NCBI GenBank assembly: GCA_028282465.1 | Contig: JANQHX010000007.1 | Span: 1-64,000 of the forward strand | Reading direction: 5' to 3' | Source: Gynuella sp. | GTDB lineage: Bacteria; Pseudomonadota; Gammaproteobacteria; Pseudomonadales; Natronospirillaceae | DNA: 64,000 nt | Part shown: one piece after another, positions 706 through 38,984 of the stretch | Position numbering within the stretch: position 1 is the stretch's first letter | How the letters are laid out: each line of letters begins with the position of its first letter | The notes under the pieces: generated by a model | What the model was told of the DNA's origin: nothing | Seen by the model: only the letters and a program-made list of their open reading frames with translations | Database searches by the model: none | Made by a program: the position numbers and the translations under genes

Positions 706-706
706 G

Positions 707-2625: not shown

Positions 2626-2632
2626 TTAAAAA

Positions 2633-2988: not shown

Positions 2989-5900
2989 TTAGCCGCTACT
3001 CTCTAACGCTTGGAGTTTTTCCATGATTTCATTCATTTTATAATGAGTGTTCAAATCAATATTGATTTTGCCATTCATTATTTTGACTAACGGCAGCAAA
3101 GACTCGTCAAGAGTGTTAATCAAAGCCTTCAGCACATCATCTACACCCTGAACCGGCTCATTCACCACAGTCACATTTGGCTCCCGCTGCATGAGAGCAT
3201 CCAGTTTATTGATGACAAGATTGCCATCGAGTTCCGGCTTATTTGTTTCTCTGCTCTGGTTTTGGATGACCCTTGCAAGTTTGGCGATTTGAGTGGCAAC
3301 TAACCTTGCTGACTCACCTTGACTACTTTGCGGTTCATCAGATCCTGCTAAGGCCTTAGTCGCCGCTACCAAATCTACCAATTGAGCCACCACCTTTGTT
3401 GCAGCGTCAGTATCGTCACCACCCATCGCTTTGTTACGGGAGAAATCGTCCAAAATTTGCTGCCAGCGCTGGCTCTGCACCTCTGTCATATTGCCACGAA
3501 GCTGAGCCAGCTTAAGCAGATTTTCTTCGGCTCCCTGGGTCAGCAACTGAGCTTCGCCTTGGTAATGATCTGACACCAACTGCATCAATTCATCTTGAGT
3601 CATCACTGAAGAGAGTTTTTCAGCCATCTTATTCATATTTCGATAGCTACCCTGAAGCTTAAAAGCAGGTTCTTGTCGATATTTTTCTGCCGTGGCGCTG
3701 CTTTCAATATATTGCTGATTCACTTTTAAAATAACATCTCGAATGACAAACATTTTTTGCAGTACCGAGACAATTTCCTGAACTTCAGCACCACTGTAAT
3801 TGTGCTTGAGTTCATTGGCTGCTATTTGATCCGTTTCGGCCATTTTAATCAAACTGTAGACATCATCCATACCCCGAGTTGCCAACGGAGCTAACACCGA
3901 ATTAGAGGTCAACGAGTTTTCAATAAAACTCAAACCGAAGGTGTCCTGTTTACCACCAATCACATCACCCAGGTTATAAATGTCCGCACGGTTTGCCAGC
4001 ATGTCCGGAATTCGGAAGAGCTCACCACTTTCCGTGTAGGGGTTGCCCGCCATCACAATGCAGAATTTTTTACCTCGCATATCATAGGTTTTGCTGTCAC
4101 CTTTCCAGACACCTTCCATACGACGTGTTCCGTCACATAAAGAAATAAATTTTTGCAAAAACTCTGGATTAGTATGCTGAATGTCATCCAAATAAAGCAT
4201 GACGTTGCTACCCATCTCCAACGCCAAATTAAGTTTTTCCAGCTCCTGCCGAGCGGCACTGTTAGTTGCTTGGGAGGGGTCAACTGAATCCGCCTGATGA
4301 CCAATAGACGGGCAGTTAATTTTCATAAACACCAAGCCAAGACGATTCGCTACATATTCCATCAAGGTGGTTTTACCATAACCTGGAGGCGAGATAAGCA
4401 GTAACAGCCCCATTAAATCAGTGCGCTTATTTTCACCCGCAGTACCCATTTGTTTAGCTAGGTTATCGCCGATCATAGGTAGGTAAACTTCGTTAATCAG
4501 TTTGTTGCGGACGAATGAAGACAATGGTCTCGCTTTGTATTCATCTAACCTGAGATCTTCACGATACTGTTCCACCAAGCTCTGGCGCACATCTTGTAAT
4601 TTGTACCAACGAGGAACTGTTTCTAAATGAAAGGCCGACAACCGCTCCAGATACTCATCCAGCTGCAGTTGATATTGGCCGTTATCTAATTGAGAGTGAT
4701 CGCCATACATACCAACAACAGTTGCTTGCAAGTCAGCTTCTGTATCTTGCCGATCGACACGGGCATCAGCATTTAAAATTGAAACCGCCTCAGGAATAAA
4801 ACTTTCTAACTCAACAAGGTTTTTATGTTTAACAAAACCTTGCAACCAACTGTTAGTTAAACGCCAGCGGTTACCCACATGACCTTTTTGCTTTTCTAAA
4901 GCCGTCTGATAATCACGCCAAACATTTTGGACATTGAGTTCAGTTTGGAAATCATTAACCAATTTACGAGCGTATTTAGTCGTCACAAATTGATGATGCT
5001 CTGCTGACAGCTCAAGCACCAAATACTCTGCCGCCTGTTTGATTTTTACCAATGGAACTTTCAAAGCCCAAGACTCGTTAAATTCCATCAACTGCTGAGA
5101 TACTTCAGCTTCAACATTATTAAGAGATGTGCGATCGCCAAATACGCTGGACAACTGATATGCAGTTCTAGCCCTTTCTGGCCAATGTTCACATACCTCT
5201 GAACGCTGATGATTCACCCAAAACACCACTGCTAACGACCTTGCTAACGCACTAAACCTTAGAGGCCCAGCCTGTTCGAGGAGTTGGACTAATATCTTTA
5301 GTATATTTGCTGCGTCTTGATCATGAATACCCTTCTCGTAGCCTTCACGATAGCGATCAGAGGCAAAGTCTCGAACCAGATCTAATAACGCTTCGGGGTT
5401 TTCAATTGCTTGAGTGAGCTCATCCCAACCAACAGATTTTGCTGAGGGCAATTTCCCCTGAGACGTCTGTAAAATTAAAAATGCCAGGTATTCAGAACGA
5501 TAGACAGTTTCAGATTCTGAACTGAGGTTTTGATCCCATAGATTAGACAGTTGGCTTAAACTCTCGTCTTCAATGGCTTCGTAATAATCTGTACCGGTAA
5601 GATGAATATGTTGAACACCTGATCGTGGAATCAGTGTTAAATCCAGTTCAGTGGTATTGACCGAGAAACGGTGTCTTGGCCCTAATTTAATGACCTTACC
5701 GCCCTCTTCAAAGATATCGGATTTATCCCTGAGGGTTCGAATAGCCTGATCCTTCAATGCTTTAACTTTCGCTTCCAAATCATCGGCTTTAACGACTTCG
5801 TCCAACTCACGCAACTCTTGAGAAAGCTGATTCAGTTTGAGTATCAAGGCATCAGAAGCAAAAAACGTATTCAGCTCATCCTCAGTTTTAAAACCAGACG

Positions 5901-8262: not shown

Positions 8263-8337
8263 AGCCTGATCCTTGACTCAAATATTGGGAATTCAAAAAA
8301 GTTAATGGGCTGAAATGAATTCAACCCAGTGACTTTG

Positions 8338-10299
8338 TTAACCGTTGAACTGCTCTGGGTTTTTGTTTTCTTTTGCACCCAACGTCATCAGTTTTTCAAT
8401 CACCTGTTGAATTGCTGGACTTTTCCCAATTAAACCTTCAACGGCATTCCCCAGGCCCAAGCCTTGAGCCAGTTTGTTAAAGTAATCTCCTTGGCCACCT
8501 ACAATATCAATGTTGGCATTTTCAAAGGCTGCAGCCAGTACTTCTGCTTGATCTTTCGCAATGGATTTATTGGCATCAATACTCGCCATCACTTCTTGAA
8601 TTGCCGCTTCTAGGTTCATACGGAACTCTTCGAATTCACGAGCCTGTGGACTCATATTGCTCATGGCAGCAAATTTGTCGATCAAGCCCTGAGCTTCAGA
8701 TGATGCTTTCTGGCGGATAACCTCAGCAGAGGCCAGACCTTTTTCTTTCTCTGCTTTGGCAATTGCAAGCCCCATCTCTTCTTCACCACGGGCTTCTGCG
8801 GTAAGTAACTCTTCACGTACTTTTGCTTCAACCAGCCCTTTTTTCTCATCGGCAGCGGCCTGCGCTTCGGTGACTCTGGCCTCTACTAGGCCCTCTTTTT
8901 CAGTAGCATCGGCTTTGGCTTCCATCACTCGTGCCTGTGCCAAACCTGAAGCCGCCTCCTCAGCTTGCATACCTTCAGCTTTCTTCTTGCGAGATTCCGC
9001 GTCTTTCGCAGCAGCTTCTAGTTCAGCTTGAGCGATTAAGTTAATTTCTTTCGCTTTGTGGATGGCTTTCTGCTCATCTGCTTCTGCGGCCTTCACCTCT
9101 TTGACCATTTCTTCTTGAGCAACTGCTTCAGCATCTAGAATACGAACCTGCTTTTGGCGGTCAGCTTCTGACACTTCTCTCACCTCTTTAATACGCTCTT
9201 CTTCTTCAGCAACCTTCTTCTCAACTGCTATGCGTTCTGAAATAGTGCTGGCAATAATTTTACGCTCTTCTTCCAGTGCTTTTTCTTTATTGATCCGTTC
9301 TAGTTCAACTTCACGCTCTCGGTTTACCGCTTCTAATTGCTGGGCACGAACCACTTTCTCTTCTTCAACTGCAATGGCACGTTCGCGGTTTTTACTGGCG
9401 ATTTCAACTTGCCGCTGTTTGTTTTCTTCTCGAATAGCGACTTGCTCTTCGGTTTCAATGCGAGCCTGTTCTGCCTTTAAGCGCTCTTCTTCAACAACCT
9501 TTTTAGTCTCGGCTTCTTCCCGAGCACGCAGGGTATCGACTTCTCTTTGTTGTCTGGCTTCAGCATCTGCTTCCTGACGCTCTAGAGATAGCAAAGCCTC
9601 TCTGGCTTCAACATTTTTCTTGGTGATTGCCAACTCTTCATCTTTTTCAAGACGGTTGGTTTCTACATTTTGAGTAGCCGTTAATTCGGTGATACGACGA
9701 ATACCTTCGGCATCTTGAATATTATTTGGGTCTAACTGAGTTTTAGGAGTTTGCTCTAAATAGTCGATCGCTACATCTTCTAAAACATAGCCATTTAAAT
9801 CATTACCAATGACTTCAACAATTTTTTCACGGAATTGAATACGGTTTTCAAACAAGTCTAAGAAAGACATGTTTTTACCTACGGTTTTTAACGCTTCAGA
9901 GAATTTAGCGTTGAACAATAAGTTTACCGCCTCTTTGTCTGATGCACGTTCAACCCCAATGGCTTTTGCTACTTTTAATACGTCATCGGAGGTTTCATTT
10001 ACTCGCAAATAGAATGCAACGGTAATGTCTGCTCGAAGGTTGTCTTTACAGATTAATCCATCTTGACCCCGTCGATCTAATTCAAGAGTGATCAAAGAGA
10101 TCTTCATTACTTCTTTTCTGTGCACAATAGGTATTACCATTGAACCAGTGAAGCTCACCTTGGGCTTGCTCGCTGTAGTATTCACGATCAGGGCATGGCC
10201 CTGATCTATTTTTTTATAAAAAGCAGCATAAGAAAAAACCAACGCTACTACGGCAAACACAATTATCCCGATAACTGAGGTAAAAAACTCGGCACCCAT
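8338..10299 (-). CDS. yqiK: Flotillin-like SPFH/Band-7 protein (YqiK family)
   Basis: The 653-aa product has an N-terminal TM helix and an SPFH domain ('...SLITLELDRRGQDGLICKDNLRADITVAFYLRV...'). These are followed by a very long E/A/K/R-rich coiled coil ('EAEARQQREVDTLRAREEAETKK...'), typical of bacterial flotillins. It is paired with a YqiJ-like gene immediately upstream, as in E. coli yqiJK. Confidence 0.85.
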   Translation of the reverse strand: MGAEFFTSVIGIIVFAVVALVFSYAAFYKKIDQGHALIVNTTASKPKVSFTGSMVIPIVHRKEVMKISLITLELDRRGQDGLICKDNLRADITVAFYLRVNETSDDVLKVAKAIGVERASDKEAVNLLFNAKFSEALKTVGKNMSFLDLFENRIQFREKIVEVIGNDLNGYVLEDVAIDYLEQTPKTQLDPNNIQDAEGIRRITELTATQNVETNRLEKDEELAITKKNVEAREALLSLERQEADAEARQQREVDTLRAREEAETKKVVEEERLKAEQARIETEEQVAIREENKQRQVEIASKNRERAIAVEEEKVVRAQQLEAVNREREVELERINKEKALEEERKIIASTISERIAVEKKVAEEEERIKEVREVSEADRQKQVRILDAEAVAQEEMVKEVKAAEADEQKAIHKAKEINLIAQAELEAAAKDAESRKKKAEGMQAEEAASGLAQARVMEAKADATEKEGLVEARVTEAQAAADEKKGLVEAKVREELLTAEARGEEEMGLAIAKAEKEKGLASAEVIRQKASSEAQGLIDKFAAMSNMSPQAREFEEFRMNLEAAIQEVMASIDANKSIAKDQAEVLAAAFENANIDIVGGQGDYFNKLAQGLGLGNAVEGLIGKSPAIQQVIEKLMTLGAKENKNPEQFNG

Positions 10300-28153: not shown

Positions 28154-29917
28154 ATGAAAAATACAATAAAGCTTGCTGTGTTAAGCGCATTGTTCGTAAG
28201 TGCAGCTCACGCACAGGATTATCACGTCGCCAAAACCGGCGCAGACACTAATTCGGGCACAAAAGACGCTCCCTTCCTAACGATTCAAGCGGCAGTGGAT
28301 ATTGCTAAAGGCGGCGACACCGTGATTGTTCACGAAGGTACCTACAGAGAAACCGTAACCTTCAAACAGGGTGGAAAATCTGAAGATAACCGCCTGGTAT
28401 TAAAAGCTGCTGAAGGTAAAGACGTTACCATCAGTGGATCGGAAGTCGTTGAAAAATGGAAAAACAAAAAAGGTGTTTGGACCGCTAAAATTAAAAACAG
28501 CATTTTTGGTGACCAAGCCAATCCCTTTGGCACCCTGTTGAAATACCCTCGTCCAGTTTCTGTGGATTCAGTATTCAATCAAACTGGCTGGCAAACCTAT
28601 GGTCTAGAAGCTCACCGTGGTCAGGTAACCATCGACAATTACCCATTAGTTGAAGTGCTAACGAAAGAAGAAGTGAAAAGCACTCCCAATTCCTTTTTTG
28701 CGGATGTCAGTAAAAAGAGAACCACTATTACGGCCAACTTCGGTAATAAAGATCCTAACAAGCATCTAGTTGAAGTATTTGCTCGCATGCACGTTATCAC
28801 TGCTGATGCTTATGCGGCTAACTATGTCACCGTGTCAGGATTCAATTTACAGCACGCTGCCACTCACTGGGCACCACCTACGGTTTATCAACCTGGATTG
28901 ATTGAATCTAATGGTAGCGGTTACTGGATTATAGAAAACAACAAGATTTCTAATTCACGTGTTGTTTGTATCTCAATTGGTATTCCAGAAGACAGCAATC
29001 CAAACCCTCGTGCTATTAGTGGTAACCACATTATTCGCTACAACCACATTCAATACTGTGGCCAGGGCGGTATTGCTGGCCAAGCCTACGCCGATTACAC
29101 GCACATTCATAACAACATCATTGAAGACATCAACCCATACACAGAAATGGGTGGTTGGGAAACTGCTGGCATAAAAACCCATAACAATGACTTCACTATG
29201 ATCGAAAACAATCTGATCAAAAACGTCAAAACTATTGATCCAATCGGTGGTGCTGGTCACGGTATCTGGATTGATTATGAAAACACCAATGTGGTTATTC
29301 GCAATAACGTCATCATGGGCGCAGAGGGCTATCCAATCGAGTTAGAGGCCAACTGGGATGGTCCGTTCTTAGTTGCTAATAACGTTGTGGTAGGCGATGG
29401 TTGGGAACCAGTGTCTATTCAGTCTTCACGTAATGGAATTTGGGTTCACAATATTATTGTTGACGCTAGCATTAACTGGGTAAACCAAGACTACGGCGGC
29501 CGCCCTGTTGTAATGGGTGATCGTTGGTTCAATAACATCTTCATTGGTGATTCTGGTCTTGATGAAATGCTAATCGGTTCTGAAGATTATAAAATTGGAA
29601 ATAATTTATTCTTAGATGGCGCCAACCCATCACCAATCGAAGAAAATAGTGTTGAGTCTTCAACGCCTGCTAACTTTAAGGCCACACTTAAAAATGGCGT
29701 GATAAATGTAAGCTTCGACTTAGGAAAAGATGGTTTAGGTAAAGGCCTGCCTTTTGTCAACAATGCCTTCCATGGTCACCCTTTAATGTCAGCGGATAAA
29801 AATGATATTCCAGTGGATATGGACATTCTTGGAAACAAGCGAGGAAAGTCTCCTCAATGGGGGCCATTTGAAAATATTAAGGCTGGTACCAATAGCTTTG
29901 AATTATCGATTCAGTAA
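28154..29917 (+). CDS. Secreted right-handed parallel beta-helix (pectin-lyase-fold) protein, paralog A; possible polysaccharide lyase or hydrolase
   Basis: It has a signal peptide ('LAVLSALFVSAAHAQ') and the N-terminal 'YHVAKTGADTNSGTKDAPFLTIQAAVDIAKGGDTVIVHEGTYRETV' typical of the DUF1565/beta-helix N-cap. Repeated 'N.I.NN.I....' PbH1-like rungs follow. It is about 60% identical along its full length to 36462..38222. Confidence 0.8.
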   Translation: MKNTIKLAVLSALFVSAAHAQDYHVAKTGADTNSGTKDAPFLTIQAAVDIAKGGDTVIVHEGTYRETVTFKQGGKSEDNRLVLKAAEGKDVTISGSEVVEKWKNKKGVWTAKIKNSIFGDQANPFGTLLKYPRPVSVDSVFNQTGWQTYGLEAHRGQVTIDNYPLVEVLTKEEVKSTPNSFFADVSKKRTTITANFGNKDPNKHLVEVFARMHVITADAYAANYVTVSGFNLQHAATHWAPPTVYQPGLIESNGSGYWIIENNKISNSRVVCISIGIPEDSNPNPRAISGNHIIRYNHIQYCGQGGIAGQAYADYTHIHNNIIEDINPYTEMGGWETAGIKTHNNDFTMIENNLIKNVKTIDPIGGAGHGIWIDYENTNVVIRNNVIMGAEGYPIELEANWDGPFLVANNVVVGDGWEPVSIQSSRNGIWVHNIIVDASINWVNQDYGGRPVVMGDRWFNNIFIGDSGLDEMLIGSEDYKIGNNLFLDGANPSPIEENSVESSTPANFKATLKNGVINVSFDLGKDGLGKGLPFVNNAFHGHPLMSADKNDIPVDMDILGNKRGKSPQWGPFENIKAGTNSFELSIQ

Positions 29918-29937
29918 TTAAATCCAAAGTCTTAGAA

Positions 29938-29961
29938 AGAGCGCATCAGCGCTCTTTTTTA
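29938..29961 (+). terminator. Rho-independent terminator after beta-helix paralog A
   Basis: AGAGCGC-ATCA-GCGCTCT perfect 7-bp stem followed by TTTTTT. Confidence 0.75.
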
Positions 29962-30269
29962 ATAACTAAATAAAATCAGCGTACCTACCCAACTAAAAGT
30001 AAGATTGAAATCCCTTCAAAATTAATTGTCCCTATAATTCTTTATCACCATTCAATATCCCCTTCATAAGCTGCTATGACTGCATGAAACATGTGGTAAC
30101 AGAACAGAGTTATCAGATCATGTTAATAACTCGATGTGTAAGCTAAATTTCCATTCTGAGTTTATTGTAAATAGTCATAGTTTTCTTAACTAAGTTAAAT
30201 CGTAAAGCCTGAGAATAAAAACAGGCTTGTTAAACAGACACCTCTAATCAAATTAACAGCGAGCATCAT

Positions 30270-31481
30270 ATGGCAAAAATACTTCAGATTTCATTGCTAT
30301 CAATATGTCTTACATGGTGTTCATTCTCTTTTGGCATTTCGGCAGATGAGAGACTGGTACAGGCTATCATGTCTGAAAACATAGTCCGAATTCGAGTCTT
30401 ACTAAGGCAAGTAGATGACATAAACCAGGTTCGTCACAAAGGCCAAGATCTAGTTACATTCGCTATTAAAAACGGGAAAGACGAATCTGCAGAATTTTTA
30501 AAAAGCCAAGGCGCCAAAGTTCAAAAAACCAATTCAGTTAAGAAAAAACCAAAAACGGTTGCTACAAAAAAACCTAAAATCAATAAAGAAATAAATTGGA
30601 ATACTGCGTTATCTTCCATTGAAAACATCAAGAATGCACTGAGGCAAGGCGCCAGTCCTAATGCAGTATTTAATGGTGAGTCAGTACTTCACTACGCGGC
30701 GAACCGCGGGAGAGTAGGTGTTGCGAAAGAGCTCATCCTGAACGGGGCCAATCCAAATAAACTGGATAAAAATAAACGATCCATTCTTCATGCCTTTGCT
30801 CAGTCGCCGAGTCGAAGTGGTGTTGAGCTTGCGTTAGAGCAGGGTGTAAAAGAAAACCTCAAGGATTCTAAAGGTCATACCTATAAAACCTATCTATTAG
30901 CATCATCCCAAGGCCAAGTTATTTTCAACAGCTTGCGATTAAAAAACGCCTCCGAAGATGAAATGACTAGAGCGACCAAGTTAGCAGCAAATACTAAAGA
31001 CATTAAAGCTCTTAAAAACCTATTGGTTGTTAACAATGGCAAACACGACATAGACATTTCATCAGACCTATTAACTGCTGAAAATTTTGAAATTGCCCTT
31101 CTGTTAAATCGCTACGCAAGTGTTAGAGCGAAACGATTTTACCGGGGGAAAACTTTTTATCAGATGGTCACTAAAGACTTTAGTGTTGGATATTATTTGG
31201 TAACCATGGGAGCCGACCCAAAACCAAAGTCGTTCCTTGACGTTCAAAGACTGGCGGAACTGTGTAAAACCCAGGATATGATGCCCATGCTAGCAGCAGG
31301 TAAGATAATAGCTGACACTCCAATGACTGAGTTTGATCATGAAACCTTATTCGATTTCATGTCAACCAAATGTGAAGCCGAACAGAGCTTAAACATCACT
31401 GAAATAGCAGCTAAAAATGTTGTTAACTCAATGGTCATTTCAAACGAACTTGCACTCGAAATGGCACTAGGTGATCAGTAG
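30270..31481 (+). CDS. Secreted ankyrin-repeat protein with Lys/Pro-rich linker, paralog A
   Basis: It has a signal peptide, then a Lys/Pro-rich linker 'KKKPKTVATKKPKINK', then ankyrin repeats ('GESVLHYAANRGRVGVAKELILNGANPNKLDKNKRSILHAFAQ'). It is about 55% identical along its full length to 31830..33068. Confidence 0.8.
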   Translation: MAKILQISLLSICLTWCSFSFGISADERLVQAIMSENIVRIRVLLRQVDDINQVRHKGQDLVTFAIKNGKDESAEFLKSQGAKVQKTNSVKKKPKTVATKKPKINKEINWNTALSSIENIKNALRQGASPNAVFNGESVLHYAANRGRVGVAKELILNGANPNKLDKNKRSILHAFAQSPSRSGVELALEQGVKENLKDSKGHTYKTYLLASSQGQVIFNSLRLKNASEDEMTRATKLAANTKDIKALKNLLVVNNGKHDIDISSDLLTAENFEIALLLNRYASVRAKRFYRGKTFYQMVTKDFSVGYYLVTMGADPKPKSFLDVQRLAELCKTQDMMPMLAAGKIIADTPMTEFDHETLFDFMSTKCEAEQSLNITEIAAKNVVNSMVISNELALEMALGDQ

Positions 31482-31829
31482 TTTTAAAACTTAAACAAGT
31501 TAACATAAATAAAATTTATGCTAACTAAGCATTCAATAAAAAGCTTTTCTCTCTTGTGACAGGCTTTAACAAAGCAGGCACAGCAAATCATATTATTGTA
31601 TAATCTTCGACCATCAGTTAACTCAAAATAGTATATTGATTCTATTTTTATAGCTTAATTATCGAGTATAAAAATTCGAAACTTAAATTTCGTAACTTAA
31701 TATGGAATTTAGCTACTGAATTAGTTTTCATTTAAGTCGCGATAAAATTATTAAGACATTCGTTTCACTATACTCAATTTGAAATTTAGTTCTTGATCTA
31801 TAAAGTTTGTAAGGATTTGTGAGTAAAGC

Positions 31830-33068
31830 ATGGAAATTAAGAGAGTATCGTTGTTGGTGCTGACCCTCTTTTGCTGTTCATTGGTATTTGGAAATACAGT
31901 TGAAGAAAAGCTAGCAGAAGCCATTTTGTCTGAAAATATAGTAAGGATGAGAGTGTTGCTACGTCAGGTTAACGACATCAATCAACTTCGACATGAAGGG
32001 CAGGATCTGCTTACGTATGCCATAACAAATGGAAAAAAGGATGCGGCTGATTATTTGCGAAGCCAAGGTGCTGTTAGACAAAAGATTCAAAGGCCAATCC
32101 CAAAACCAAAAGTTGTAGTTAAAAAACCTGAGGTCTCGAAACCCAAGCCAAAGCCCAAACCTAAACTTAACTGGAACACCGCTTTAACATCAGCAAAGAA
32201 CGTTCGAAGCGCTTTAAACGATGGCGCAAACCCTAACGCTACTTTCAATGGTGAGTCAGTTCTACATTATGCTGCGAATCAGGGGCGAGCAAGTGTGGTT
32301 GATGTGCTGATTCAACGCGGTGCCAATAAAGATACAGTGGATAGTAACAATCGAACTGTATTGCATGTATTTGCACAATCCCTAAATGGTGATGGAATCA
32401 GAGTCTCACTAAAGCATGGTGTGAACTCAACCCTTTTAGACAATGCAGGTAATACCTATAAAACATATTTATTATCTAGCATCTCGGGGCAAACAATTTT
32501 TGACAACTTGCAACTGAACACGGCGACCATAGAAGAAATGAGGGGAGCAACAAGATTGTCAGCGGACGCACGAGATTTTAAAGCACTTAAAAACTTATTG
32601 ATTGCAGGCAAAGGCAATCATGGTATTGAAGTGACTTCGGAATTGTTAACATCAGAAAAAATTGAACTTGCGCTAACTCTTAATCGTTTTAGCGATGTAA
32701 AGCCTAAACAGTTTTATCCAGACAAGACGTTTTATCAAACTGTTCAAGAGAACTTTGAGTCAGGATATTACTTGGTTACGATGGGGGTCGATCCAATGCC
32801 AGCATCATTCGCAGACCTTCGCATTCTAGAAGAACTTTGTAAAACACAAGATGTCATGCCCATGTTAGCTGCTGGAGGAGTTACCGCTGCAACGCCTATG
32901 ACTAAGTTTTACCATAAAAATGTTTTTGAATTTATCTCCTCTAAATGCCAAACCAAACAAAGTATTGGCTTAACAGAGGCCGATGCAAAACAAAATATTA
33001 CTTCGATGATTATTTCAGAAGAAATGGCATCTATATTGGCAATCGGTGCGACTGCATTGACTAAATAA
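31830..33068 (+). CDS. Secreted ankyrin-repeat protein with Pro/Lys-repeat linker, paralog B
   Basis: It has a signal peptide, a 'PIPKPKVVVKKPEVSKPKPKPKPK' linker and ankyrin repeats ('GESVLHYAANQGRASVVDVLIQRGANKDTVDSNNRTVLHVFAQ'). It is a paralog of 30270..31481. Confidence 0.8.
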   Translation: MEIKRVSLLVLTLFCCSLVFGNTVEEKLAEAILSENIVRMRVLLRQVNDINQLRHEGQDLLTYAITNGKKDAADYLRSQGAVRQKIQRPIPKPKVVVKKPEVSKPKPKPKPKLNWNTALTSAKNVRSALNDGANPNATFNGESVLHYAANQGRASVVDVLIQRGANKDTVDSNNRTVLHVFAQSLNGDGIRVSLKHGVNSTLLDNAGNTYKTYLLSSISGQTIFDNLQLNTATIEEMRGATRLSADARDFKALKNLLIAGKGNHGIEVTSELLTSEKIELALTLNRFSDVKPKQFYPDKTFYQTVQENFESGYYLVTMGVDPMPASFADLRILEELCKTQDVMPMLAAGGVTAATPMTKFYHKNVFEFISSKCQTKQSIGLTEADAKQNITSMIISEEMASILAIGATALTK

Positions 33069-33094
33069 TCAACCCCGCCTTACGACTTTAAAGC

Positions 33095-33138
33095 ACCAAG
33101 GAGAATAATTCATATGCACAACTCTTCTTGGTGTTTTA
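33095..33138 (+). terminator. Rho-independent terminator after ankyrin paralog B
   Basis: CACCAAGGAGA ... TCTTCTTGGTG (11-bp stem with 1 mismatch and a long loop) followed by TTTT. Confidence 0.6.
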
Positions 33139-33534
33139 AACGCTTTATTTTTCTCAAGCTCACAACCTCTTAATAGAAAGATTTTTTTCAAAACAGATGT
33201 ACTTAACTGCACTCATTAAGCTAACTGTAAATTATATAGTTCAACTGTCAGCAATGAGACTATTGAATCATAATTAATTTTTTTCTAATTCAAACCAATC
33301 GAACACACTTCCCCTCTATAACTTTGAATATATTTTTATTCTTAAAGAGATTTTCTGCTGAATTATAGAATTACAATACAATGACCCACTGTTTAGTATC
33401 GAAACCCTGCTGGATCACCTACTCATACGTCATGTAATTTTAATGACAGTCACTTAGATTAAATCTTTTTACTAGAAAAAATTTATTTTCCTAAAAAAAA
33501 TATAAATGCTTGCAAGGATAGTACAGGAGAACCA

Positions 33535-36192
33535 ATGAAGTTCAGAACCACCTCAGTTAGTGCATTATTGTTATTGGGCACTACATTGTTAACAGGTTGT
33601 GGAGGGTCAGGAGACTCTAACTCAGCACCGAGCACCCAAAGTTTTTTAGATGTAACTATAAGATCAAATTGCGAAACAAGGCCAGAATATGTCTGGCTAG
33701 ATGACAAGTGTAGAATTGCCGATAACCCTTTTGTAGATAATCTAAACGCTATTGAAAAGCTGCCATCACAAGACCGAGCCAACCTAGTGGCTTATCTGGT
33801 GTCTACCGAAAAGTTTCAAAGCTTCGATAACATACTTCCCGGCTTTACTGGATCTACAAACACGGATGAACCCAATAACGATTCTTGGATCGATAACCGC
33901 TTACTAGCTGATAAATTAAATCAAGAGCTATTGGTCGAAGTAGGTGCGCAACAGGTGTTGCTAGACCAGTTAGTGACCGCCAGCACCAGCCAGACTTGGG
34001 TTCAAAGCGAAAGCACTACAGTAGAAATTAATGGTCAGTCAACGTCAAAGTCTGCAGAATTTTTATTGGATGATGGCACGCTTACCATCACCGTTATGGG
34101 CGAAGTAATTTATTCATTTACCCCAATAGAAGCCTTATCGCTGTCCGCTCATTTGGGGATGAACAGCACAACGGGATTTACTAACCACCCAGATCAAAGC
34201 AGGCCATTGTATTTAGAGGATACAAAAGACTTCGCAGTCTTTATACAACCTAACTTGCAAACGCTTATCCAAGAAACCTTAGCACCCACTGACGCCTCTA
34301 TAGCGTTAGTAAAGGACGCCCTTTCCCTTTCTCAACGCTTTACTGATGAGAACATCAGCATAACTCGGGGAACTATGCCAGCAGGCTTTAAAGTGACTCT
34401 GGATAACGGTGAAGGATATATACAAGGCTTTGGTCAAGCTGGGGGCACTAGCAATAATAATATTGACACATACTTGATTGCACCGAGAACGTTATTTGAA
34501 GACTCCATTGACACAGATATTGTCGGCACAATGGATTTTCAAATTTGGCTTAAGCCTAATCAGAAGGAAAATCTGGGCTTCACAGCGAACACTATATTAT
34601 CGGCCAATGGTACTCTAGATTATCAAGCAGATATTCAAGAAAACGACGCTTCAGAATTGTCTATTTCCTTTTCGCAATTGTTAGCAACCACGAGAGCAAC
34701 ACTAGACACACATTATAATATTGACGATGTCGACATCTTAGAAAACATTACCAATGTTTTCGTTGATGACTATTATGAAAAATCAGAGGCGTTAAGAAAC
34801 AGCGCTTATTTATCTGAGCTAAGTCCGGCCTATCAAGACGGATTTCCACAGGCGTACGACATCGTGCCTGTTTACAATCGACTGGTAGGTACTGAAAACT
34901 TTGCGACTCATATTATGGAAAATGACAGAGCATTTCCTTATTTTTTAACTAGAGCCATGCCAAATTATTCAGTTATTACATCTGAGGAAACCACAACCCC
35001 ATACAGGTATTATGACTTTGTGGTTGGTCGCTTTATCGCTAACACTCTCGCCTATGAGTTATCTCGGGATGACGCTGACTTTAAAGAAATTCTAGATCGT
35101 TGGACATTGGTATCTAACAACCTAGGGAATACTTATGCAGAGTTTTACAACAGTATCCTAGATCCCATCGAGTTAATCTTAGATGAACTGCCCAATGACT
35201 CCGTTGAACATTACTACGAAGCAGTGAGCGAACTTGCTGCGACCTTTGGTTATCGACATATTCCTTTGGCAAATAGTTCGTTAATCACTACCATTAATTC
35301 AGCTACTAACGCAGCTACGGCACCTTATGAAGAACCAGTTGTTGATAATCTTGAAGATCTAAGAAGTCTGGTAACATGGAATGGATTAGGTAGATTTTGG
35401 TCCATCAATGAAGAAGCTAATGAAAAGCTAGAAACAGTGCCGCAATTATTGACTGAGGAATTGAAAGCCACCTACCAAACACATGATGACGTTTCCGTTC
35501 TTTTTGATCTGCCTGTATATGCGTATAACTATATATTTTTAGAACCAGAAACTGCCCAAAGCCAAGTTGAGGCTAAAACGGTTGTATTAAATCGCGCAGT
35601 TGCAAACACCAATGCTCCGCATAGTGATATTGTGATACTCAACAATCACAATATTGGCCGGTGGAACATGATTAGCCGCGGTTATCATGAAAACTGGAAT
35701 GAACATGTGTACGCAGATGTACTGCAAATTTTAAGATATATGCCTCGAAGCACTTTTACGGGGGATCTCCAATGCACTGAAGGCAGTATGGCTGAAAAGT
35801 ATAACTGCGTACGCATGACCAGCCTGATGGCTCTGGATCGTTTTACTGTGGGAGACACTGGCTATTTAGAGAACGGCGACGGTGACAAGCCATTTATTAC
35901 TAAAGCAAATATCATTGAAGGCTGGATTGCAAAGCATGCTGAGATTATTTCATTAAACTCGTTAGACGCCTTCAATTGGGAAAATAGACAAATTAATTCA
36001 ATTAGAGAAGGTCACTGGCTCAGTTGTGACAATACTGAAATAAACCGTAGAATTGATCGGACAGATGAGCTGTTAGACGCGGCGCTTGATATTCTAAGAG
36101 TCAACCCAAATCCACTTTCTTTTACCGAAGAAGGCGAACAATATAATGAGTATCTTGATGAATATAAGGATTTGATGGAAGCCTGTATTTAG
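33535..36192 (+). CDS. Large (885 aa) lipoprotein of unknown function
   Basis: It has a lipoprotein signal ('LLTGCGGSGDSNSAPS'). Composition is soluble, acidic and Asn/Thr-rich. I recognise no catalytic motif. Confidence 0.75.
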   Translation: MKFRTTSVSALLLLGTTLLTGCGGSGDSNSAPSTQSFLDVTIRSNCETRPEYVWLDDKCRIADNPFVDNLNAIEKLPSQDRANLVAYLVSTEKFQSFDNILPGFTGSTNTDEPNNDSWIDNRLLADKLNQELLVEVGAQQVLLDQLVTASTSQTWVQSESTTVEINGQSTSKSAEFLLDDGTLTITVMGEVIYSFTPIEALSLSAHLGMNSTTGFTNHPDQSRPLYLEDTKDFAVFIQPNLQTLIQETLAPTDASIALVKDALSLSQRFTDENISITRGTMPAGFKVTLDNGEGYIQGFGQAGGTSNNNIDTYLIAPRTLFEDSIDTDIVGTMDFQIWLKPNQKENLGFTANTILSANGTLDYQADIQENDASELSISFSQLLATTRATLDTHYNIDDVDILENITNVFVDDYYEKSEALRNSAYLSELSPAYQDGFPQAYDIVPVYNRLVGTENFATHIMENDRAFPYFLTRAMPNYSVITSEETTTPYRYYDFVVGRFIANTLAYELSRDDADFKEILDRWTLVSNNLGNTYAEFYNSILDPIELILDELPNDSVEHYYEAVSELAATFGYRHIPLANSSLITTINSATNAATAPYEEPVVDNLEDLRSLVTWNGLGRFWSINEEANEKLETVPQLLTEELKATYQTHDDVSVLFDLPVYAYNYIFLEPETAQSQVEAKTVVLNRAVANTNAPHSDIVILNNHNIGRWNMISRGYHENWNEHVYADVLQILRYMPRSTFTGDLQCTEGSMAEKYNCVRMTSLMALDRFTVGDTGYLENGDGDKPFITKANIIEGWIAKHAEIISLNSLDAFNWENRQINSIREGHWLSCDNTEINRRIDRTDELLDAALDILRVNPNPLSFTEEGEQYNEYLDEYKDLMEACI

Positions 36193-36218
36193 GTTGTTGA
36201 ACCCTATTATTTGATTTC

Positions 36219-36246
36219 AGGGGTGCTAGCTTGCACCCCTTTTTTA
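36219..36246 (+). terminator. Rho-independent terminator after the 885-aa lipoprotein gene
   Basis: GGGGTGC-TAGCTT-GCACCCC perfect 7-bp stem followed by TTTTTT. Confidence 0.8.
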
Positions 36247-36461
36247 GACCTAATTTCTCTCATTCATAATTTCCAATTCACATCCCAGTGATAAACAGTC
36301 GATTATATTCATAAAGCCCATTCCACTATTTTTGAATTTTTAATCTGAATCATCTCGATAGTCTTTTTTGGCAATTTATTTCTTTGCAACTGGGCGCTCA
36401 TTGTTTTTACTGTCGACGTTAACTGTTAAGCTAAATCAAAAACAAGAATCGAGACCAGTGT

Positions 36462-38222
36462 ATGAAAACAATAAAAACCCTAATTTTATTGCTGTTGCTT
36501 GTCGGTCATGTTGCCCATGCTCAGATTTATTATGTTGCCAAAACCGGATCAGACAAAAACCCAGGCACCCAAACAGAACCCTTCCTAACCATTTCACAAG
36601 CCGCTAAAGCTGCGGGCGCTGGTGATACGGTTATTGTTCATGAAGGTGTATATCGTGAACAGGTAAATCTTACTAAAGGCGGTAAGTCTGAAGAAGAACG
36701 ATTGGTATTTAAAGCAGCTGATGGTGAGGATGTTGCCATTAAGGGTTCAGAGGTCGTTGATTTTTGGGAACAACAGGAAAGTCTATGGACGGTGAAGCTA
36801 AATAAGAAATTTTTCCCGAAAAAGTTTAATCCATATAAAAAATTAGTGAAGTACCCTCGAAATGTTTGGTGGGACAAAGAATATGGTGGCGTCGGCTGGC
36901 AAACTTATGGATACGAGGCCAACCGAGGCAACGTATTTATCAATGACCTTCCTTTAGTTCAGGTTTTTACCATTGAAGATGTAAAAAGCACCAAAAACTC
37001 TTGGTATGCAAAAGTAAAAGGTAAAAAGACCACTCTTCATGCGAACTTTGGCGAATTAAATCCTAACGAGGAACGCACAGAGGTTTTAGTTCGCGAAAAA
37101 GTATTCGCAGCAAAACCAGTAGGCAAGGTGGACTATGTAACTGTGTCAGGATTTACTCTTCATCACGCTGCAACTTATTGGGCGCCACCTACCGTTTATC
37201 AAACAGGTTTGGTTGAACCTCATGCCGGTGCACACTGGATTATTGAAAATAATGATATTGGTTTTTCAAGAGCAGCTTGTGTTTCTGTTGGTGTTCCTAA
37301 GGGAGATCCTGAAGAAGCTTGGGAAGGACGAGGGCATCATATTATTCGTAACAACAAAATCCATAACTGTGGCCAATCGGGAATTGCTGGTCAGTATTTC
37401 GCAGATTACAGTCATATTAGTGGCAACTGGATTGAGAATATCAATATATATACAGAGTTTGGCGGCTGGGAAACGGCGGGCATTAAGCTCCACCATAATA
37501 ATCACAGTGTTATCGAAAATAATTTTATAAGAAATATCTATACCATTGACCCGGTAGCTGGATCAGCCCATGGCATTTGGATTGATTATGAGAACTATCA
37601 TACCGTCATACGCAACAACATAGTCACCGATGTTGAAAGTCATCCACTGTTATTAGAAGCCAATTGGAATGGGCCATTTTTAATTGCTAATAATATTTTT
37701 ATAGGTACGCCTACAGCGATTTATTCATCCTTGAATCAGGTGTGGGCCCACAATCTTTTTGTAGATTCACCCTTATGGTGGACTAATCAAGGCTTTGGTG
37801 GTCGCCCGGCAATTGATAACGAATTTTGGGCGAACAATATTTTTATCGGACAGGGTGGTTTAGAAACTGCTAATAGCGATACCAAGATACCTAATATAGA
37901 AATGAATCATAACTTATATTTAGATGGTGCTCAGCCTCACGAAACTGAATCCTCCAGTGTGATTTCTGATACAGAATCTAAATTCAGTTTAACGGTCAAT
38001 GATTATTCTGTGGACGTCAGTATTCATCTTTCAGGAGATGATCTGTCAACTGACTTGAGAGTGATTGACCAAAGTCTTCATGGTATGCCGATTTATTATG
38101 GTGATGAATCAGAGGCTATTGTGGATACAGACTTTTTTGGAAACACTCGAAGCAAAACACCACAGTGGGGGCCATTTGAAGACTTAAAAGCTGGCAAAAA
38201 CTCTTATCAAATTAAGTTCTAA
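36462..38222 (+). CDS. Secreted right-handed parallel beta-helix protein, paralog B
   Basis: It has a signal peptide and 'IYYVAKTGSDKNPGTQTEPFLTISQAAKAAGAGDTVIVHEGVYREQV'. It is colinear with 28154..29917, sharing 'ATYWAPPTVYQTGL', 'GGWETAGIK', 'HGIWIDYEN' and the C-terminal 'PQWGPFE'. Confidence 0.8.
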   Translation: MKTIKTLILLLLLVGHVAHAQIYYVAKTGSDKNPGTQTEPFLTISQAAKAAGAGDTVIVHEGVYREQVNLTKGGKSEEERLVFKAADGEDVAIKGSEVVDFWEQQESLWTVKLNKKFFPKKFNPYKKLVKYPRNVWWDKEYGGVGWQTYGYEANRGNVFINDLPLVQVFTIEDVKSTKNSWYAKVKGKKTTLHANFGELNPNEERTEVLVREKVFAAKPVGKVDYVTVSGFTLHHAATYWAPPTVYQTGLVEPHAGAHWIIENNDIGFSRAACVSVGVPKGDPEEAWEGRGHHIIRNNKIHNCGQSGIAGQYFADYSHISGNWIENINIYTEFGGWETAGIKLHHNNHSVIENNFIRNIYTIDPVAGSAHGIWIDYENYHTVIRNNIVTDVESHPLLLEANWNGPFLIANNIFIGTPTAIYSSLNQVWAHNLFVDSPLWWTNQGFGGRPAIDNEFWANNIFIGQGGLETANSDTKIPNIEMNHNLYLDGAQPHETESSSVISDTESKFSLTVNDYSVDVSIHLSGDDLSTDLRVIDQSLHGMPIYYGDESEAIVDTDFFGNTRSKTPQWGPFEDLKAGKNSYQIKF

Positions 38223-38260: not shown

Positions 38261-38296
38261 AATGGGCTGATAGATTTTGCTATCAACCCATTTTAC
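38261..38296. terminator. Bidirectional stem-loop terminator between convergent genes (beta-helix B on the plus strand, GST on the minus strand)
   Basis: AATGGGCTGATAG-ATTTTG-CTATCAACCCATT is a 13-bp stem with one mismatch. It is flanked by A-runs on the 5' side and a T-run on the 3' side. Confidence 0.65.
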
Positions 38297-38297
38297 T

Positions 38298-38984
38298 TTA
38301 CAGTGCACAGACCTTAACGCCTCTTTGCACTGCAGGCCGCTCACTAATAGCTTGGTGCCAACGAATCACGTTTTTATACTCGTAGTAATTGACTGCTTCA
38401 AAAGCCTCGTAGAAATTAAATGCGCCTACCCAAGGGAAGGTAGCAATATCTGCAATACTGTAATCATCTCCGGCGAGATACTCGGTTTCGCCTAATTTTT
38501 TATCTAACACCTTAAGTAAGCGAATGGTTTCTTTGGTATATCGTTCTTCACCATAACTATCGGTTTTTCCCTTCGCAAATTTATAGAAATGACCAAATTG
38601 ACCAAACATGGGGCCGATACTCGCCATTTGAAAAAATAGCCATTGAATAGTTTGCCACCTTTGAGTGGGGTCAGTACTCAGCAATTTACCGGTCTTTTCA
38701 GCTAGATAAATCATCATGGCGCCCGACTCCATGAAATGGATAGGCTTACCATCAGGCCCATTGGGATCTATTAATGCAGGTATTTTTGAGTTTGGATTGA
38801 TCTTTTTAAAGTCTTCATCAAATTGTTCATCTTTCATGATGTTAATTAAATGAGCTTCGTAAGGAAGTTCTGATTCTTCCAACATAATGCCTAATTTCAT
38901 GCCATTAGGTGTGGCTAAAGAATAAAGCTGGATACGTTCTGGGTGTTGAGCAGGCCATCTTTCTGGGAACCAAAGATCCGACAT
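38298..38984 (-). CDS. Glutathione S-transferase family protein (Nu-class, YghU/YfcG-like)
   Basis: The 228-aa product has a GST N-terminal thioredoxin-like part ('IQLYSLATPNGMKLGIMLEE...IPALIDPN') and a C-terminal helical domain ('YLAGDDYSIADIATFPW'). Confidence 0.85.
   Translation of the reverse strand: MSDLWFPERWPAQHPERIQLYSLATPNGMKLGIMLEESELPYEAHLINIMKDEQFDEDFKKINPNSKIPALIDPNGPDGKPIHFMESGAMMIYLAEKTGKLLSTDPTQRWQTIQWLFFQMASIGPMFGQFGHFYKFAKGKTDSYGEERYTKETIRLLKVLDKKLGETEYLAGDDYSIADIATFPWVGAFNFYEAFEAVNYYEYKNVIRWHQAISERPAVQRGVKVCAL

What the first reader, a model, noticed from the sequence alone, without database searches (positions are those of the whole stretch)
28154..38222. Accessory-looking island: paired secreted beta-helix paralogs bracketing two paralogous secreted ankyrin-repeat proteins and an 885-aa lipoprotein
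- **Content.** Five plus-strand genes in a row all encode signal-peptide proteins: beta-helix A, ankyrin A, ankyrin B, a large lipoprotein and beta-helix B.
- **Intergenic structure.** The genes are separated by long AT-rich intergenic regions of about 270 to 470 nt (350, 348, 465 and 269 nt). Four of the five have their own strong rho-independent terminator, which is unlike the tightly packed housekeeping operons elsewhere in the window.
- **Paralogy.** The two beta-helix proteins (587 and 586 aa) are about 60% identical. The two ankyrin proteins (403 and 412 aa) are about 55% identical. Both pairs look like old tandem duplications.
- **Possible function.** Secreted ankyrin-repeat proteins are classic eukaryote-like proteins of host-associated marine bacteria. 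The pectin-lyase-fold beta-helix proteins with the DUF1565-type N-cap are commonly polysaccharide lyases or hydrolases. Together this suggests a host- or polymer-interaction locus, targeting an algal or animal surface or an extracellular polysaccharide.
- **Boundaries.** The island sits between argH and a GST gene. A convergent bidirectional terminator lies at the 3' end.
Basis: partly seen in the sequence, partly recalled or inferred. Interest (0 to 1): 0.7.

Follow-up and report, generated by a model that had tools for sequence, protein, structure and literature searches.

The report
Exported GH120 glycosidases, orphan ankyrins, rare lipoprotein
This 10-kb stretch is a lineage-specific cluster of five separately transcribed genes for exported proteins (two GH120-type sugar-cleaving enzymes, two orphan ankyrin-repeat proteins, one lipoprotein from a rare undescribed family); I found no evidence that they form one conserved system or a recently acquired island, so it is only mildly interesting.

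Summary
The five plus-strand ORFs are real and sit at the stated coordinates. All have signal-type N-termini, and both paralog pairs are real, at 51% and 53% identity rather than about 60% and 55%.

The beta-helix proteins are not lyases. They are glycoside hydrolase family 120 members: XylC (PDB 3VST) matches at E=1.5e-57 and 2.1e-67, and the GH120 insertion domain scores above Pfam's cut-off. The catalytic Asp and Glu and three -1 subsite residues are conserved. Arg450 is replaced by Trp and Gln289 is missing, so the sugar specificity may differ from xylose.

The ankyrin proteins have no relatives except each other. The 885-aa lipoprotein has only 13 distant full-length relatives among 1.84 billion representatives, no Pfam family and no structural relative.

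Codon usage is normal for the window, and there are no mobility genes, tRNA or flanking repeats. In 34 loci from other organisms no GH120 or lipoprotein homolog sits next to an ankyrin gene or next to each other, so the combination is unique to this genome.

Best reading: a lineage-specific collection of independently transcribed envelope or secreted proteins at a synteny break downstream of argH. The only function assignable with confidence is glycoside hydrolysis by the two exported GH120 enzymes.

The parts
28154..29917 (+). BH-A: exported GH120-family glycoside hydrolase (587 aa). Signal peptide ends ...AHA/QD. It has a beta-helix with a beta-sandwich insertion at about residues 99-208. 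Predicted nucleophile is D374 and acid/base is E398.
   Evidence: Pfam GH120_ins 46.1 bits (cut-off 27), Beta_helix and DUF1565. XylC 3VST matches at E=1.5e-57. Active-site columns are conserved in 53 relatives.
29937..29956 (+). Rho-independent terminator after BH-A: AAGAGCGC-ATCA-GCGCTCTT followed by TTTT.
   Evidence: Hairpin of -12.1 kcal/mol with a T-run.
30270..31481 (+). AnkA: exported ankyrin-repeat protein (403 aa, pI 9.4). Layout: signal peptide 1-22, short ANK module 25-80, Lys/Pro-rich disordered linker 86-105, ANK stack about 110-260, unmodelled helical C-terminal third with a conserved Cys pair (332 and 368).
   Evidence: Pfam Ank_2 60 bits. Ankyrin-1 matches at E=2e-26. AlphaFold2 model. 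The only homolog is AnkB.
31830..33068 (+). AnkB: paralog of AnkA (412 aa, 53% identical, pI 9.2) with the same architecture.
33096..33131 (+). Weaker, long-looped hairpin plus T-rich tail after AnkB; a possible terminator.
   Evidence: -9.1 kcal/mol. The consensus scan did not find it.
33535..36192 (+). 885-aa acidic lipoprotein (pI 4.3) from a rare undescribed family. Lipobox LLTG-C22 is followed by a Gly/Ser linker. The N-terminal half is beta-rich (about 40-400) and the C-terminal half is all-alpha (about 400-885). Six invariant Cys lie in the mature part, and H650-D651 and G776-Y777-L778 are invariant.
36219..36240 (+). Strong rho-independent terminator after the lipoprotein gene: AGGGGTGC-TAGCTT-GCACCCCT followed by TTTTT.
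   Evidence: -15.9 kcal/mol.
36462..38222 (+). BH-B: second exported GH120-family glycoside hydrolase (586 aa, 51% identical to BH-A) with the same catalytic residues.
   Evidence: Pfam. XylC matches at E=2.1e-67..
38264..38289 (.). Bidirectional terminator hairpin shared by BH-B and the convergent GST gene, flanked by AAAAAT and ATTTT.
   Evidence: -10.3 kcal/mol.

Best explanation
The block is a lineage-specific cluster of five independently transcribed genes for exported proteins. It lies at a synteny break downstream of argH. It is neither a single conserved system nor a recently transferred island.

**The beta-helix proteins.** Both are Sec-exported members of glycoside hydrolase family 120. 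By homology to XylC they should act as retaining glycosidases using double displacement. In BH-A numbering, Asp374 is the nucleophile (positioned by Lys341) and Glu398 is the acid/base. They would remove terminal beta-linked pentose-type residues, most likely xylose, from oligosaccharides or glycans in the periplasm or outside the cell. The -1 pocket differs from XylC (Arg450 to Trp, Gln289 absent, His352 to Trp), so the exact sugar may differ.

**The ankyrin proteins.** Both are exported, basic protein-binding modules with unknown partners.

**The lipoprotein.** It is a disulfide-bonded, probably outer-membrane-anchored protein of a rare family with unknown function.

**Shown here:** gene structure, export signals, GH120 membership, conservation of the catalytic residues, rarity of three of the five genes, and the absence of the same gene combination in the other loci sampled.

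**Inferred:** enzymatic activity, cellular location, and functional independence of the genes.
For: - **GH120 assignment.**. The XylC catalytic and binding residues come from PMC3507262. Their equivalents E336, K341, D374 and E398 are invariant and H343 nearly so (52 of 53) across 53 clade members.
- **Export.** The N-termini show signal-type leaders. About 45 of 53 clade members carry leaders. Each mature protein has an even number of cysteines; their conservation was shown for the ankyrin pair and the lipoprotein family.
- **Separate transcription.** Spacers are 269-466 nt, with terminators after three or four of the genes. No shared upstream motif rises above shuffled controls.
- **Not a conserved module.** Contexts of GH120 relatives and of lipoprotein relatives show no pairing. 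A tblastn of all island proteins against 34 loci found no co-occurrence.
- **Not a recent island.** Codon usage and GC are within the window's range. There is no tRNA, Rfam element, flanking repeat or integrase.
- **Carbohydrate role in a relative.** The Gilvimarinus chinensis homolog sits beside a LacI regulator, a TonB-dependent receptor and a GH43 enzyme.
- **Marine precedent.** Marine GH120s are annotated as xylose-debranching enzymes in fucoidan loci (bioRxiv 10.1101/2025.08.13.670036).
Against: - Clustering five exported proteins on one strand, with two of each of two kinds, is a pattern a functional unit would also give. Lack of conservation elsewhere cannot exclude a lineage-specific system.
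- No close relative of this organism was available. ArgH is alone in its 90% cluster and the best genome hit is 77%. Presence or absence of the block in sister species was therefore not tested.
- Part of the -1 sugar pocket differs from XylC, so xylosidase activity is not assured.
- Signal peptides were judged by eye and by hydropathy, not with a trained predictor.
Confidence: 0.55

Rival explanations
1. One reading: the five genes form one host- or polymer-interaction locus. The lipoprotein binds or presents a surface glycan, the two GH120 enzymes cut it, and the secreted ankyrin proteins act on a eukaryotic host (alga, sponge or other animal) as eukaryote-like effectors.
For: - All five products are exported and encoded on one strand in one block.
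- GH120 relatives occur in carbohydrate-utilisation loci and are listed for fucoidan loci.
- From general knowledge, ankyrin-repeat proteins with signal peptides are enriched in marine symbionts; this was not tested here.
Against: - No pairing of these families occurs in any of 34 other loci.
- The cluster has no transporter, regulator or TonB-dependent receptor.
- Each gene has its own long spacer and most have their own terminator.
- There is no shared upstream motif.
- The lipoprotein shows no lectin or carbohydrate-binding fold at significant scores.
- The ankyrin proteins score far below the cut-offs of the known effector families.
Confidence: 0.2
2. The ankyrin proteins are periplasmic partners of the GH120 enzymes, acting as inhibitors, self-protection factors or chaperones. 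This would be analogous to Bdellovibrio Bd3460, an ankyrin protein encoded next to the secreted peptidoglycan endopeptidase that it inhibits. Two enzymes would match two cognate ankyrins.
For: - There are two enzymes and two ankyrin proteins, at similar divergence (51% and 53%).
- BH-A and AnkA are adjacent.
- Both protein types are exported.
- There is a precedent for ankyrin-mediated self-protection against an exported hydrolase (PMC4686830).
Against: - No other GH120-clade gene in 28 loci has an ankyrin neighbour.
- The gene order is BH-Ank-Ank-Lipo-BH, not two enzyme-partner pairs.
- An exo-glycosidase acting on xylo-type glycans has no obvious self-target that would need immunity.
- The two BH copies are not each other's nearest relatives, which argues against a single duplication of an enzyme-partner unit.
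Confidence: 0.08
3. The block is a horizontally acquired genomic island inserted between argH and the GST/pfkA genes.
For: - GC3 is slightly lower (0.362 against 0.404, p=0.045) and the spacers are AT-rich.
- The content has no counterpart next to argH in 80 other genomes.
- BH-A and BH-B each group with proteins from other organisms.
- An MCP gene is also inserted just upstream of argH, relative to the conserved kinase/regulator-argH arrangement.
Against: - Codon usage is as close to the window norm as that of core genes (B 0.256 against 0.304 +/- 0.08).
- There is no integrase, transposase, tRNA or direct repeat at the borders.
- The GST and pfkA genes are also absent from the argH neighbourhood of all compared genomes. 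The comparison is therefore too distant (77% ArgH identity at best) to define an insertion.
Confidence: 0.15

Closest known systems
XylC, the GH120 beta-xylosidase of Thermoanaerobacterium saccharolyticum (PDB 3VST; PMC3507262)
   Same: - Right-handed beta-helix with an inserted beta-sandwich domain (the Pfam GH120_ins model scores above its cut-off).
- Alignment over residues 22-477 at E=1.5e-57 (BH-A) and 2.1e-67 (BH-B).
- Catalytic Asp382 and Glu405, plus Glu353, Lys358 and His360, are conserved.
   Different: - BH-A and BH-B carry signal peptides, whereas XylC aligns from its residue 2 with no leader.
- Arg450 aligns to Trp, and Gln289 lies in a 26-residue XylC-only insertion.
- His352 becomes Trp and Trp383 becomes Tyr. 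The stacking residue Trp113 has no aligned counterpart.
- The substrate is therefore not established.
Bd3460 of Bdellovibrio bacteriovorus, an ankyrin self-protection protein (PMC4686830)
   Same: An exported bacterial ankyrin-repeat protein encoded beside a gene for an exported hydrolase.
   Different: - No sequence relationship was established.
- The neighbouring enzyme here is a glycosidase, not a peptidoglycan DD-endopeptidase.
- The pairing is not conserved in any other GH120 locus examined.
- AnkA and AnkB are about 400 aa, with a Lys/Pro linker and an extra C-terminal region.
Legionella Dot/Icm ankyrin effectors (AnkY/LegA9, AnkH/LegA3; NCBIfam)
   Same: Local similarity limited to the ankyrin repeats.
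   Different: - Scores are 35 and 20 bits against cut-offs of 600.
- These proteins have N-terminal Sec-type leaders.
- ORFs of at least 150 aa and Pfam scans of about twenty window proteins gave no type IV secretion domain; the window was not scanned completely.
Gammaproteobacterial carbohydrate-utilisation loci (TonB-dependent receptor + LacI regulator + glycoside hydrolases), as around the Gilvimarinus chinensis GH120 homolog
   Same: They contain a GH120-clade enzyme about 40% identical to BH-A.
   Different: The present block has no receptor, transporter, regulator or second CAZyme family. Instead it holds orphan ankyrin genes and a lipoprotein of unknown family.

Membership tests
Glycoside hydrolase family 120 (GH120) | Right-handed beta-helix catalytic domain with the family-specific inserted beta-sandwich domain | tested here: met
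   Pfam PF21258 Glyco_hydro_120_ins scores 46.1 bits (BH-A) and 35.5 bits (BH-B) against a cut-off of 27. PF13229 Beta_helix scores 39.9 and 40.4 against a cut-off of 25.9.
Glycoside hydrolase family 120 (GH120) | Significant sequence similarity to the founding member XylC over the catalytic region | tested here: met
   phmmer against the PDB: 3vst_A at E=1.5e-57 (BH-A, residues 22-477) and 2.1e-67 (BH-B).
Glycoside hydrolase family 120 (GH120) | Catalytic nucleophile Asp382 and acid/base Glu405 (XylC numbering) | tested here: met
   They align to D374 (IWIDYEN) and E398 (IELEAN) of BH-A. Both are identical in BH-B and invariant in 53 of 53 clade members.
Glycoside hydrolase family 120 (GH120) | XylC -1/+1 subsite residues that bind xylose (Trp113, Gln289, His352, Glu353, Lys358, His360, Trp383, Arg450) | tested here: inconclusive
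   Glu353, Lys358 and His360 are conserved. His352 becomes Trp and Trp383 becomes Tyr. Arg450 becomes Trp (Trp or Tyr in 46 of 53). Gln289 falls in a XylC-only insertion, and Trp113 is unaligned. A structural superposition was not made.
Glycoside hydrolase family 120 (GH120) | Beta-xylosidase activity with retention of configuration | not testable with these tools
   This needs recombinant enzyme assays.
   Pel9A-like_beta_helix scores 18.7 and 23.3 bits against a cut-off of 25.2, covering only residues 15-68. NCBIfam PelN scores 27-30 bits against a cut-off of 740, again N-cap only. The rhamnogalacturonan lyase 5olq match is E=4e-4 over residues 21-69 only.
Ankyrin-repeat proteins | Ankyrin repeats recognised above family cut-offs | tested here: met
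   Ank_2 scores 60.1 and 57.4 bits (cut-off 27.3) and Ank scores 36.4 and 33.4 bits (cut-off 21.1). Ankyrin-1 matches at E=2e-26. The AlphaFold2 ANK stack at 110-260 has pLDDT of about 90.
Dot/Icm type IV ankyrin effectors (AnkY, AnkH, AnkX) | Equivalog-level match to the effector family | tested here: not met
   Scores of 18-35 bits against cut-offs of 600-1400.
Enzyme / ankyrin self-protection pair (Bd3459-Bd3460 type) | Conserved adjacency of the exported hydrolase gene and the ankyrin gene across genomes | tested here: not met
   No ankyrin homolog lies within 8-10 kb (less on short contigs) of GH120-clade genes in 28 loci.
Enzyme / ankyrin self-protection pair (Bd3459-Bd3460 type) | Physical binding and inhibition of the enzyme by the ankyrin protein | not testable with these tools
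   This needs biochemistry or a complex prediction.
Genomic island (horizontally acquired) | Composition or codon usage deviating from the host genome | tested here: not met
   Codon-usage distance is 0.256 against 0.304 +/- 0.08 for other genes. GC3 is 0.362 against 0.404 +/- 0.046, which is borderline at p=0.045. The reference is only the 64-kb window.
Genomic island (horizontally acquired) | Mobility genes, a tRNA target or flanking direct repeats | tested here: not met
   No tRNA, no Rfam element, no border repeats, and no integrase or transposase ORF in or beside the block.
Genomic island (horizontally acquired) | Absence from the same site in close relatives | tested here: inconclusive
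   The best ArgH relative among 80 fetched loci is 77% identical. The upstream kinase/regulator-argH synteny is kept, but nothing downstream is shared, including GST and pfkA. No close relative was available.
Polysaccharide / carbohydrate utilisation locus | Glycoside hydrolases linked to a TonB-dependent receptor or transporter and a dedicated regulator | tested here: not met
   None of these is found between argH and GST. They are present around the Gilvimarinus homolog.
Bacterial lipoproteins | Signal peptide ending in a lipobox [LVI][ASTVI][GAS]C | tested here: met
   LLTG-C22 is followed by GGSG. The Cys is invariant and the lipobox is conserved in all 14 family members. The +2 residue is Gly, not Asp, so outer-membrane sorting is expected from the textbook rule. 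That is an inference.

The most novel reading that the evidence does not exclude
The 885-aa acidic lipoprotein may represent an undescribed family of surface or outer-membrane lipoproteins with a fold that has no solved relative. The family has 14 cluster representatives among 1.84 billion. It carries three invariant disulfide-forming Cys pairs and invariant His-Asp and Gly-Tyr-Leu motifs that could form an active or binding site. In this organism it might work together with the two basic, exported orphan ankyrin proteins and the GH120 enzymes as a lineage-specific glycan- or host-surface-processing machine.
Probability: 0.1. Interest if true: 0.6.

Novelty: new member of a known kind. Interest (0 to 1): 0.3.

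Why it matters
- It corrects the annotation. These are GH120 glycosidases, not lyases. They belong to a large, mostly exported and uncharacterised GH120 clade whose -1 pocket differs from that of XylC, the family's structurally characterised founding enzyme. One of these proteins would be a reasonable target for finding a new GH120 specificity in marine glycan turnover.
- It flags a rare lipoprotein family with no Pfam model and no structural relative, and two orphan exported ankyrin proteins.
- Beyond that the locus is ordinary. It is not a conserved system, and it opens no long-standing question.

Tried and rejected
- **Lipoprotein homologs.** The word-indexed search found only the protein itself. 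Exhaustive HMMER was needed to find any relative.
- **AnkA C-terminal third.** The AlphaFold2 model with a two-sequence alignment left residues 285-403 unmodelled.
- **Metagenome scans.** The scan with the lipoprotein alignment was impossible because no stretch is conserved enough. The close GH120 clade gave no confirmed hit. A broader alignment gave 24 loci.
- **Shared regulatory motif.** None rose above shuffled controls. TAAGCTAA occurs three times in the block's spacers but at inconsistent distances from the start codons, and is not significant window-wide.
- **Defence-system or phage origin.** PADLOC and PHROGs hits cover only the generic ankyrin segment or the beta-helix N-cap.
- **Closest BH-A relative (P0008).** Its DNA could not be fetched.

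Full report
**1. Observation.**

The five plus-strand ORFs exist exactly as described:

| Gene | Coordinates | Length |
|---|---|---|
| BH-A | 28154-29917 | 587 aa |
| AnkA | 30270-31481 | 403 aa |
| AnkB | 31830-33068 | 412 aa |
| Lipoprotein | 33535-36192 | 885 aa |
| BH-B | 36462-38222 | 586 aa |

- The block is flanked by argH (26647-28026, +) and a convergent GST gene (38298-38984, -), followed by pfkA.
- The identical locus occurs in an independent Logan assembly, and the proteins are also on record from an NCBI genome (contig of 103,850 bp).
- BH-A and BH-B are 51% identical over 575 residues. AnkA and AnkB are 53% identical over 405 residues.
- Spacers are 352, 348, 466 and 269 nt, at 26-35% GC.
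- Hairpin plus T-run terminators follow BH-A (29937-29956, -12.1 kcal/mol) and the lipoprotein gene (36219-36240, -15.9). BH-B has a bidirectional one (38264-38289). AnkB has only a weaker long-looped candidate (33096-33131), and AnkA has none.
- All five products begin with a charged n-region and a hydrophobic h-region. The BH proteins end theirs in AHA/Q. The 885-aa protein has the lipobox LLTG-C22.

**2. The beta-helix proteins are GH120 glycoside hydrolases.**

- Pfam finds the generic Beta_helix and DUF1565 N-cap, and also the GH120 insertion domain above its gathering score in both proteins.
- Against all PDB sequences the only real match is XylC, the founding GH120 beta-xylosidase of Thermoanaerobacterium saccharolyticum (3VST). 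The E-values are 1.5e-57 for BH-A and 2.1e-67 for BH-B.
- The lyase-type hits (Pel9A-like, PelN, a rhamnogalacturonan lyase) cover only the N-terminal cap and lie below or far below the cut-offs.
- The XylC paper (PMC3507262) names Asp382 as nucleophile and Glu405 as acid/base. It lists Trp113, Gln289, Glu353, Lys358, His360, Trp383 and Arg450 at subsite -1, and His352 at +1.
- In the HMMER alignment and a 53-sequence alignment of the clade, the equivalents of Glu353, Lys358, His360, Asp382 and Glu405 are invariant or nearly so. In BH-A these are E336, K341, H343, D374 and E398.
- His352 is Trp and Trp383 is Tyr or Phe. Arg450 is Trp or Tyr. Gln289 lies in a 26-residue insertion that these proteins lack. 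Trp113 has no aligned partner.
- The catalytic machinery is therefore intact but part of the sugar pocket differs. Membership of GH120 is met, while xylosidase specificity is not established.
- About 45 of 53 clade members carry hydrophobic leaders, and one has a Tat-type motif. XylC aligns from residue 2 with no leader. This is an exported clade.

**3. History of the beta-helix pair.**

- In a neighbour-joining tree without support values, BH-A groups with P0008 (60% identity) from another sample. BH-B groups with P0009 and P0011 (52-54%).
- The two copies are therefore not each other's nearest relatives. The split predates this lineage, or one copy came from elsewhere.
- P0008 lies on a 2.7-kb contig. 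A co-directional gene ends 105 nt upstream and a convergent gene starts 172 nt downstream. This layout would fit a single-copy argH-GH120-GST locus, but the DNA could not be retrieved, so this stays a lead.

**4. The ankyrin proteins.**

- Ankyrin repeats are recognised well above the cut-offs and match ankyrin-1 at E=2e-26.
- A search of 5.8 billion proteins returned only AnkA, AnkB and two generic ankyrin hits at E of about 1e-5 to 1e-6. As a family they are orphans.
- The AlphaFold2 model (pLDDT 63 overall) gives this layout:

| Residues | Feature | Confidence |
|---|---|---|
| 1-22 | Leader | - |
| 25-80 | Short ANK module | pLDDT about 80 |
| 86-105 | Lys/Pro-rich linker | disordered |
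| 110-260 | ANK stack | pLDDT about 90 |
| 285-403 | Helical C-terminal third | unmodelled |

- The C-terminal third holds a Cys pair conserved between the paralogs.
- Both proteins are basic, with pI 9.2-9.4.
- Matches to Legionella effector families score 18-35 bits against cut-offs of 600-1400. PADLOC and PHROG hits cover only the repeat segment.

**5. The lipoprotein.**

- The word-indexed search found only the protein itself.
- Exhaustive HMMER over 1.84 billion representatives found 13 full-length relatives of 860-927 aa at 23-30% identity.
- All share the lipobox and a Gly/Ser linker. They also share six invariant Cys in the mature part (C46, C59, C747, C758, C831, C884) and the invariant residues H650-D651, W721 and G776-Y777-L778.
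- With this alignment AlphaFold2 gives a usable model (pLDDT 78, pTM 0.68). The N-terminal half is beta-rich and the C-terminal half is all-alpha.
- No function could be assigned from any of the following:
  - Pfam on all 14 members.
  - A family profile against PDB sequences.
  - Foldseek against PDB (best E=0.15).
  - Foldseek against viral models.
- The protein is very acidic, with pI 4.3.

**6. Is it a system?**

- I examined neighbourhoods of GH120 relatives and of five lipoprotein relatives. I also examined 24 metagenomic GH120-clade loci.
- A tblastn of all island proteins against these 34 loci found no ankyrin homolog. It also found no lipoprotein homolog near a GH120 gene, no GH120 gene near a lipoprotein homolog, and no locus with two GH120 copies.
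- The nearest GH120 relatives stand alone beside AraC- or LysR-type regulators. The Gilvimarinus chinensis homolog sits in a typical LacI / TonB-dependent receptor / GH43 locus, which supports a carbohydrate role for the clade.
- The lipoprotein relatives have no recurrent neighbour.
- Within the window the five upstream regions share no motif beyond shuffled expectation.

**7. Is it an island?**

- Codon-usage distance of the five genes to the rest of the window (0.256) is below the mean of the other genes (0.304 +/- 0.08). GC3 is marginally lower, at 0.362 against 0.404 +/- 0.046 (p=0.045).
- There is no tRNA, no Rfam element, no border repeat and no mobility gene.
- Long spacers are common elsewhere in the window.
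- ArgH is alone in its 90% cluster. The best of 80 genome loci is a 77%-identical Oleispira MAG.
- In about 40 of those loci the sensor kinase / LytTR regulator pair lies next to argH, as it does here. Nothing downstream of argH is shared, including GST and pfkA.
- The block therefore lies at a synteny break, but insertion cannot be demonstrated at this evolutionary distance.

**8. Verdict.**

- The secure result is that two exported GH120-family retaining glycosidases flank two orphan exported ankyrin proteins and a lipoprotein of a rare, structurally unassignable family.
- The most likely picture is a lineage-specific accumulation of separately transcribed envelope or secreted protein genes. 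The GH120 enzymes would trim beta-linked pentose-type residues from extracytoplasmic glycans.
- A coherent host- or glycan-interaction machine, ankyrin partners of the enzymes (with the Bd3460 precedent, PMC4686830), or horizontal acquisition all remain possible, but each lacks positive evidence.
- Novelty is modest. These are new members of a known enzyme family, alongside uncharacterised neighbours.

Noticed in passing
window 25351-26526 (+), with 24250-25287 (-) and 26647-28026 (+): A methyl-accepting chemotaxis gene with a CZB domain sits between the sensor kinase / LytTR regulator pair and argH. In about 40 other genomes the kinase gene abuts argH directly, about 160-250 nt apart. The MCP therefore looks like a second lineage-specific insertion in the same zone.
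   Followed up: partly
window 2989-8262 (-) and 8338-10299 (-): A 1757-aa protein with DUF3686 ('ATPase involved in DNA repair'), DUF7902 and AAA/AAA_5 domains lies beside a co-directional 653-aa protein with no Pfam match. This is possibly a large ATPase system of unknown role.
   Followed up: no
window 30139-30146, 33217-33224, 36427-36434 (+): The octamer TAAGCTAA occurs three times in the block's intergenic DNA, out of six hits in the whole window (3.0 expected by chance). The sites lie 131, 318 and 35 nt before the next start codon. The spacing is inconsistent, so this is probably chance in AT-rich DNA.
   Followed up: partly
Logan contig from ERR4592246 carrying P0008 (no locus id; DNA not retrievable): The closest relative of BH-A (60% identity) sits on a 2.7-kb contig. 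A co-directional gene ends 105 nt upstream and a convergent gene starts 172 nt downstream. This mimics a single-copy argH-GH120-GST arrangement, but the flanking genes could not be identified.
   Followed up: partly
window 30270-33068 and 33535-36192: There is a strong charge contrast. Both ankyrin proteins are basic (pI 9.2-9.4) and the neighbouring lipoprotein is very acidic (pI 4.3). This is compatible with, but no evidence for, an electrostatic partnership.
   Followed up: no
L089 (Gilvimarinus chinensis KB898709.1), 1-9809: The GH120-clade homolog there lies next to a LacI-type regulator, a TonB-dependent receptor, a tryptophan-halogenase-like gene and a GH43 enzyme. This is a typical gammaproteobacterial xylan/arabinan utilisation locus.
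   Followed up: no
L086 / L087, 7002-12607: One lipoprotein-family member (P0131) follows a glycosyltransferase and a PIG-L-type deacetylase gene on the same strand. An integrase lies 8 kb upstream. This was not seen in the other four contexts.
   Followed up: no
window 33535-33680 (lipoprotein residues 1-45): The family profile's only PDB-sequence hits (E=0.1 and 1.2, not significant) are to the lipobox plus Gly/Ser linker of the AcfD/SslE homolog and of the OmcA/MtrC cytochrome. From my own knowledge, both are surface-exposed lipoproteins exported by type II secretion. This is a weak hint that the protein may be surface-exposed.
   Followed up: no
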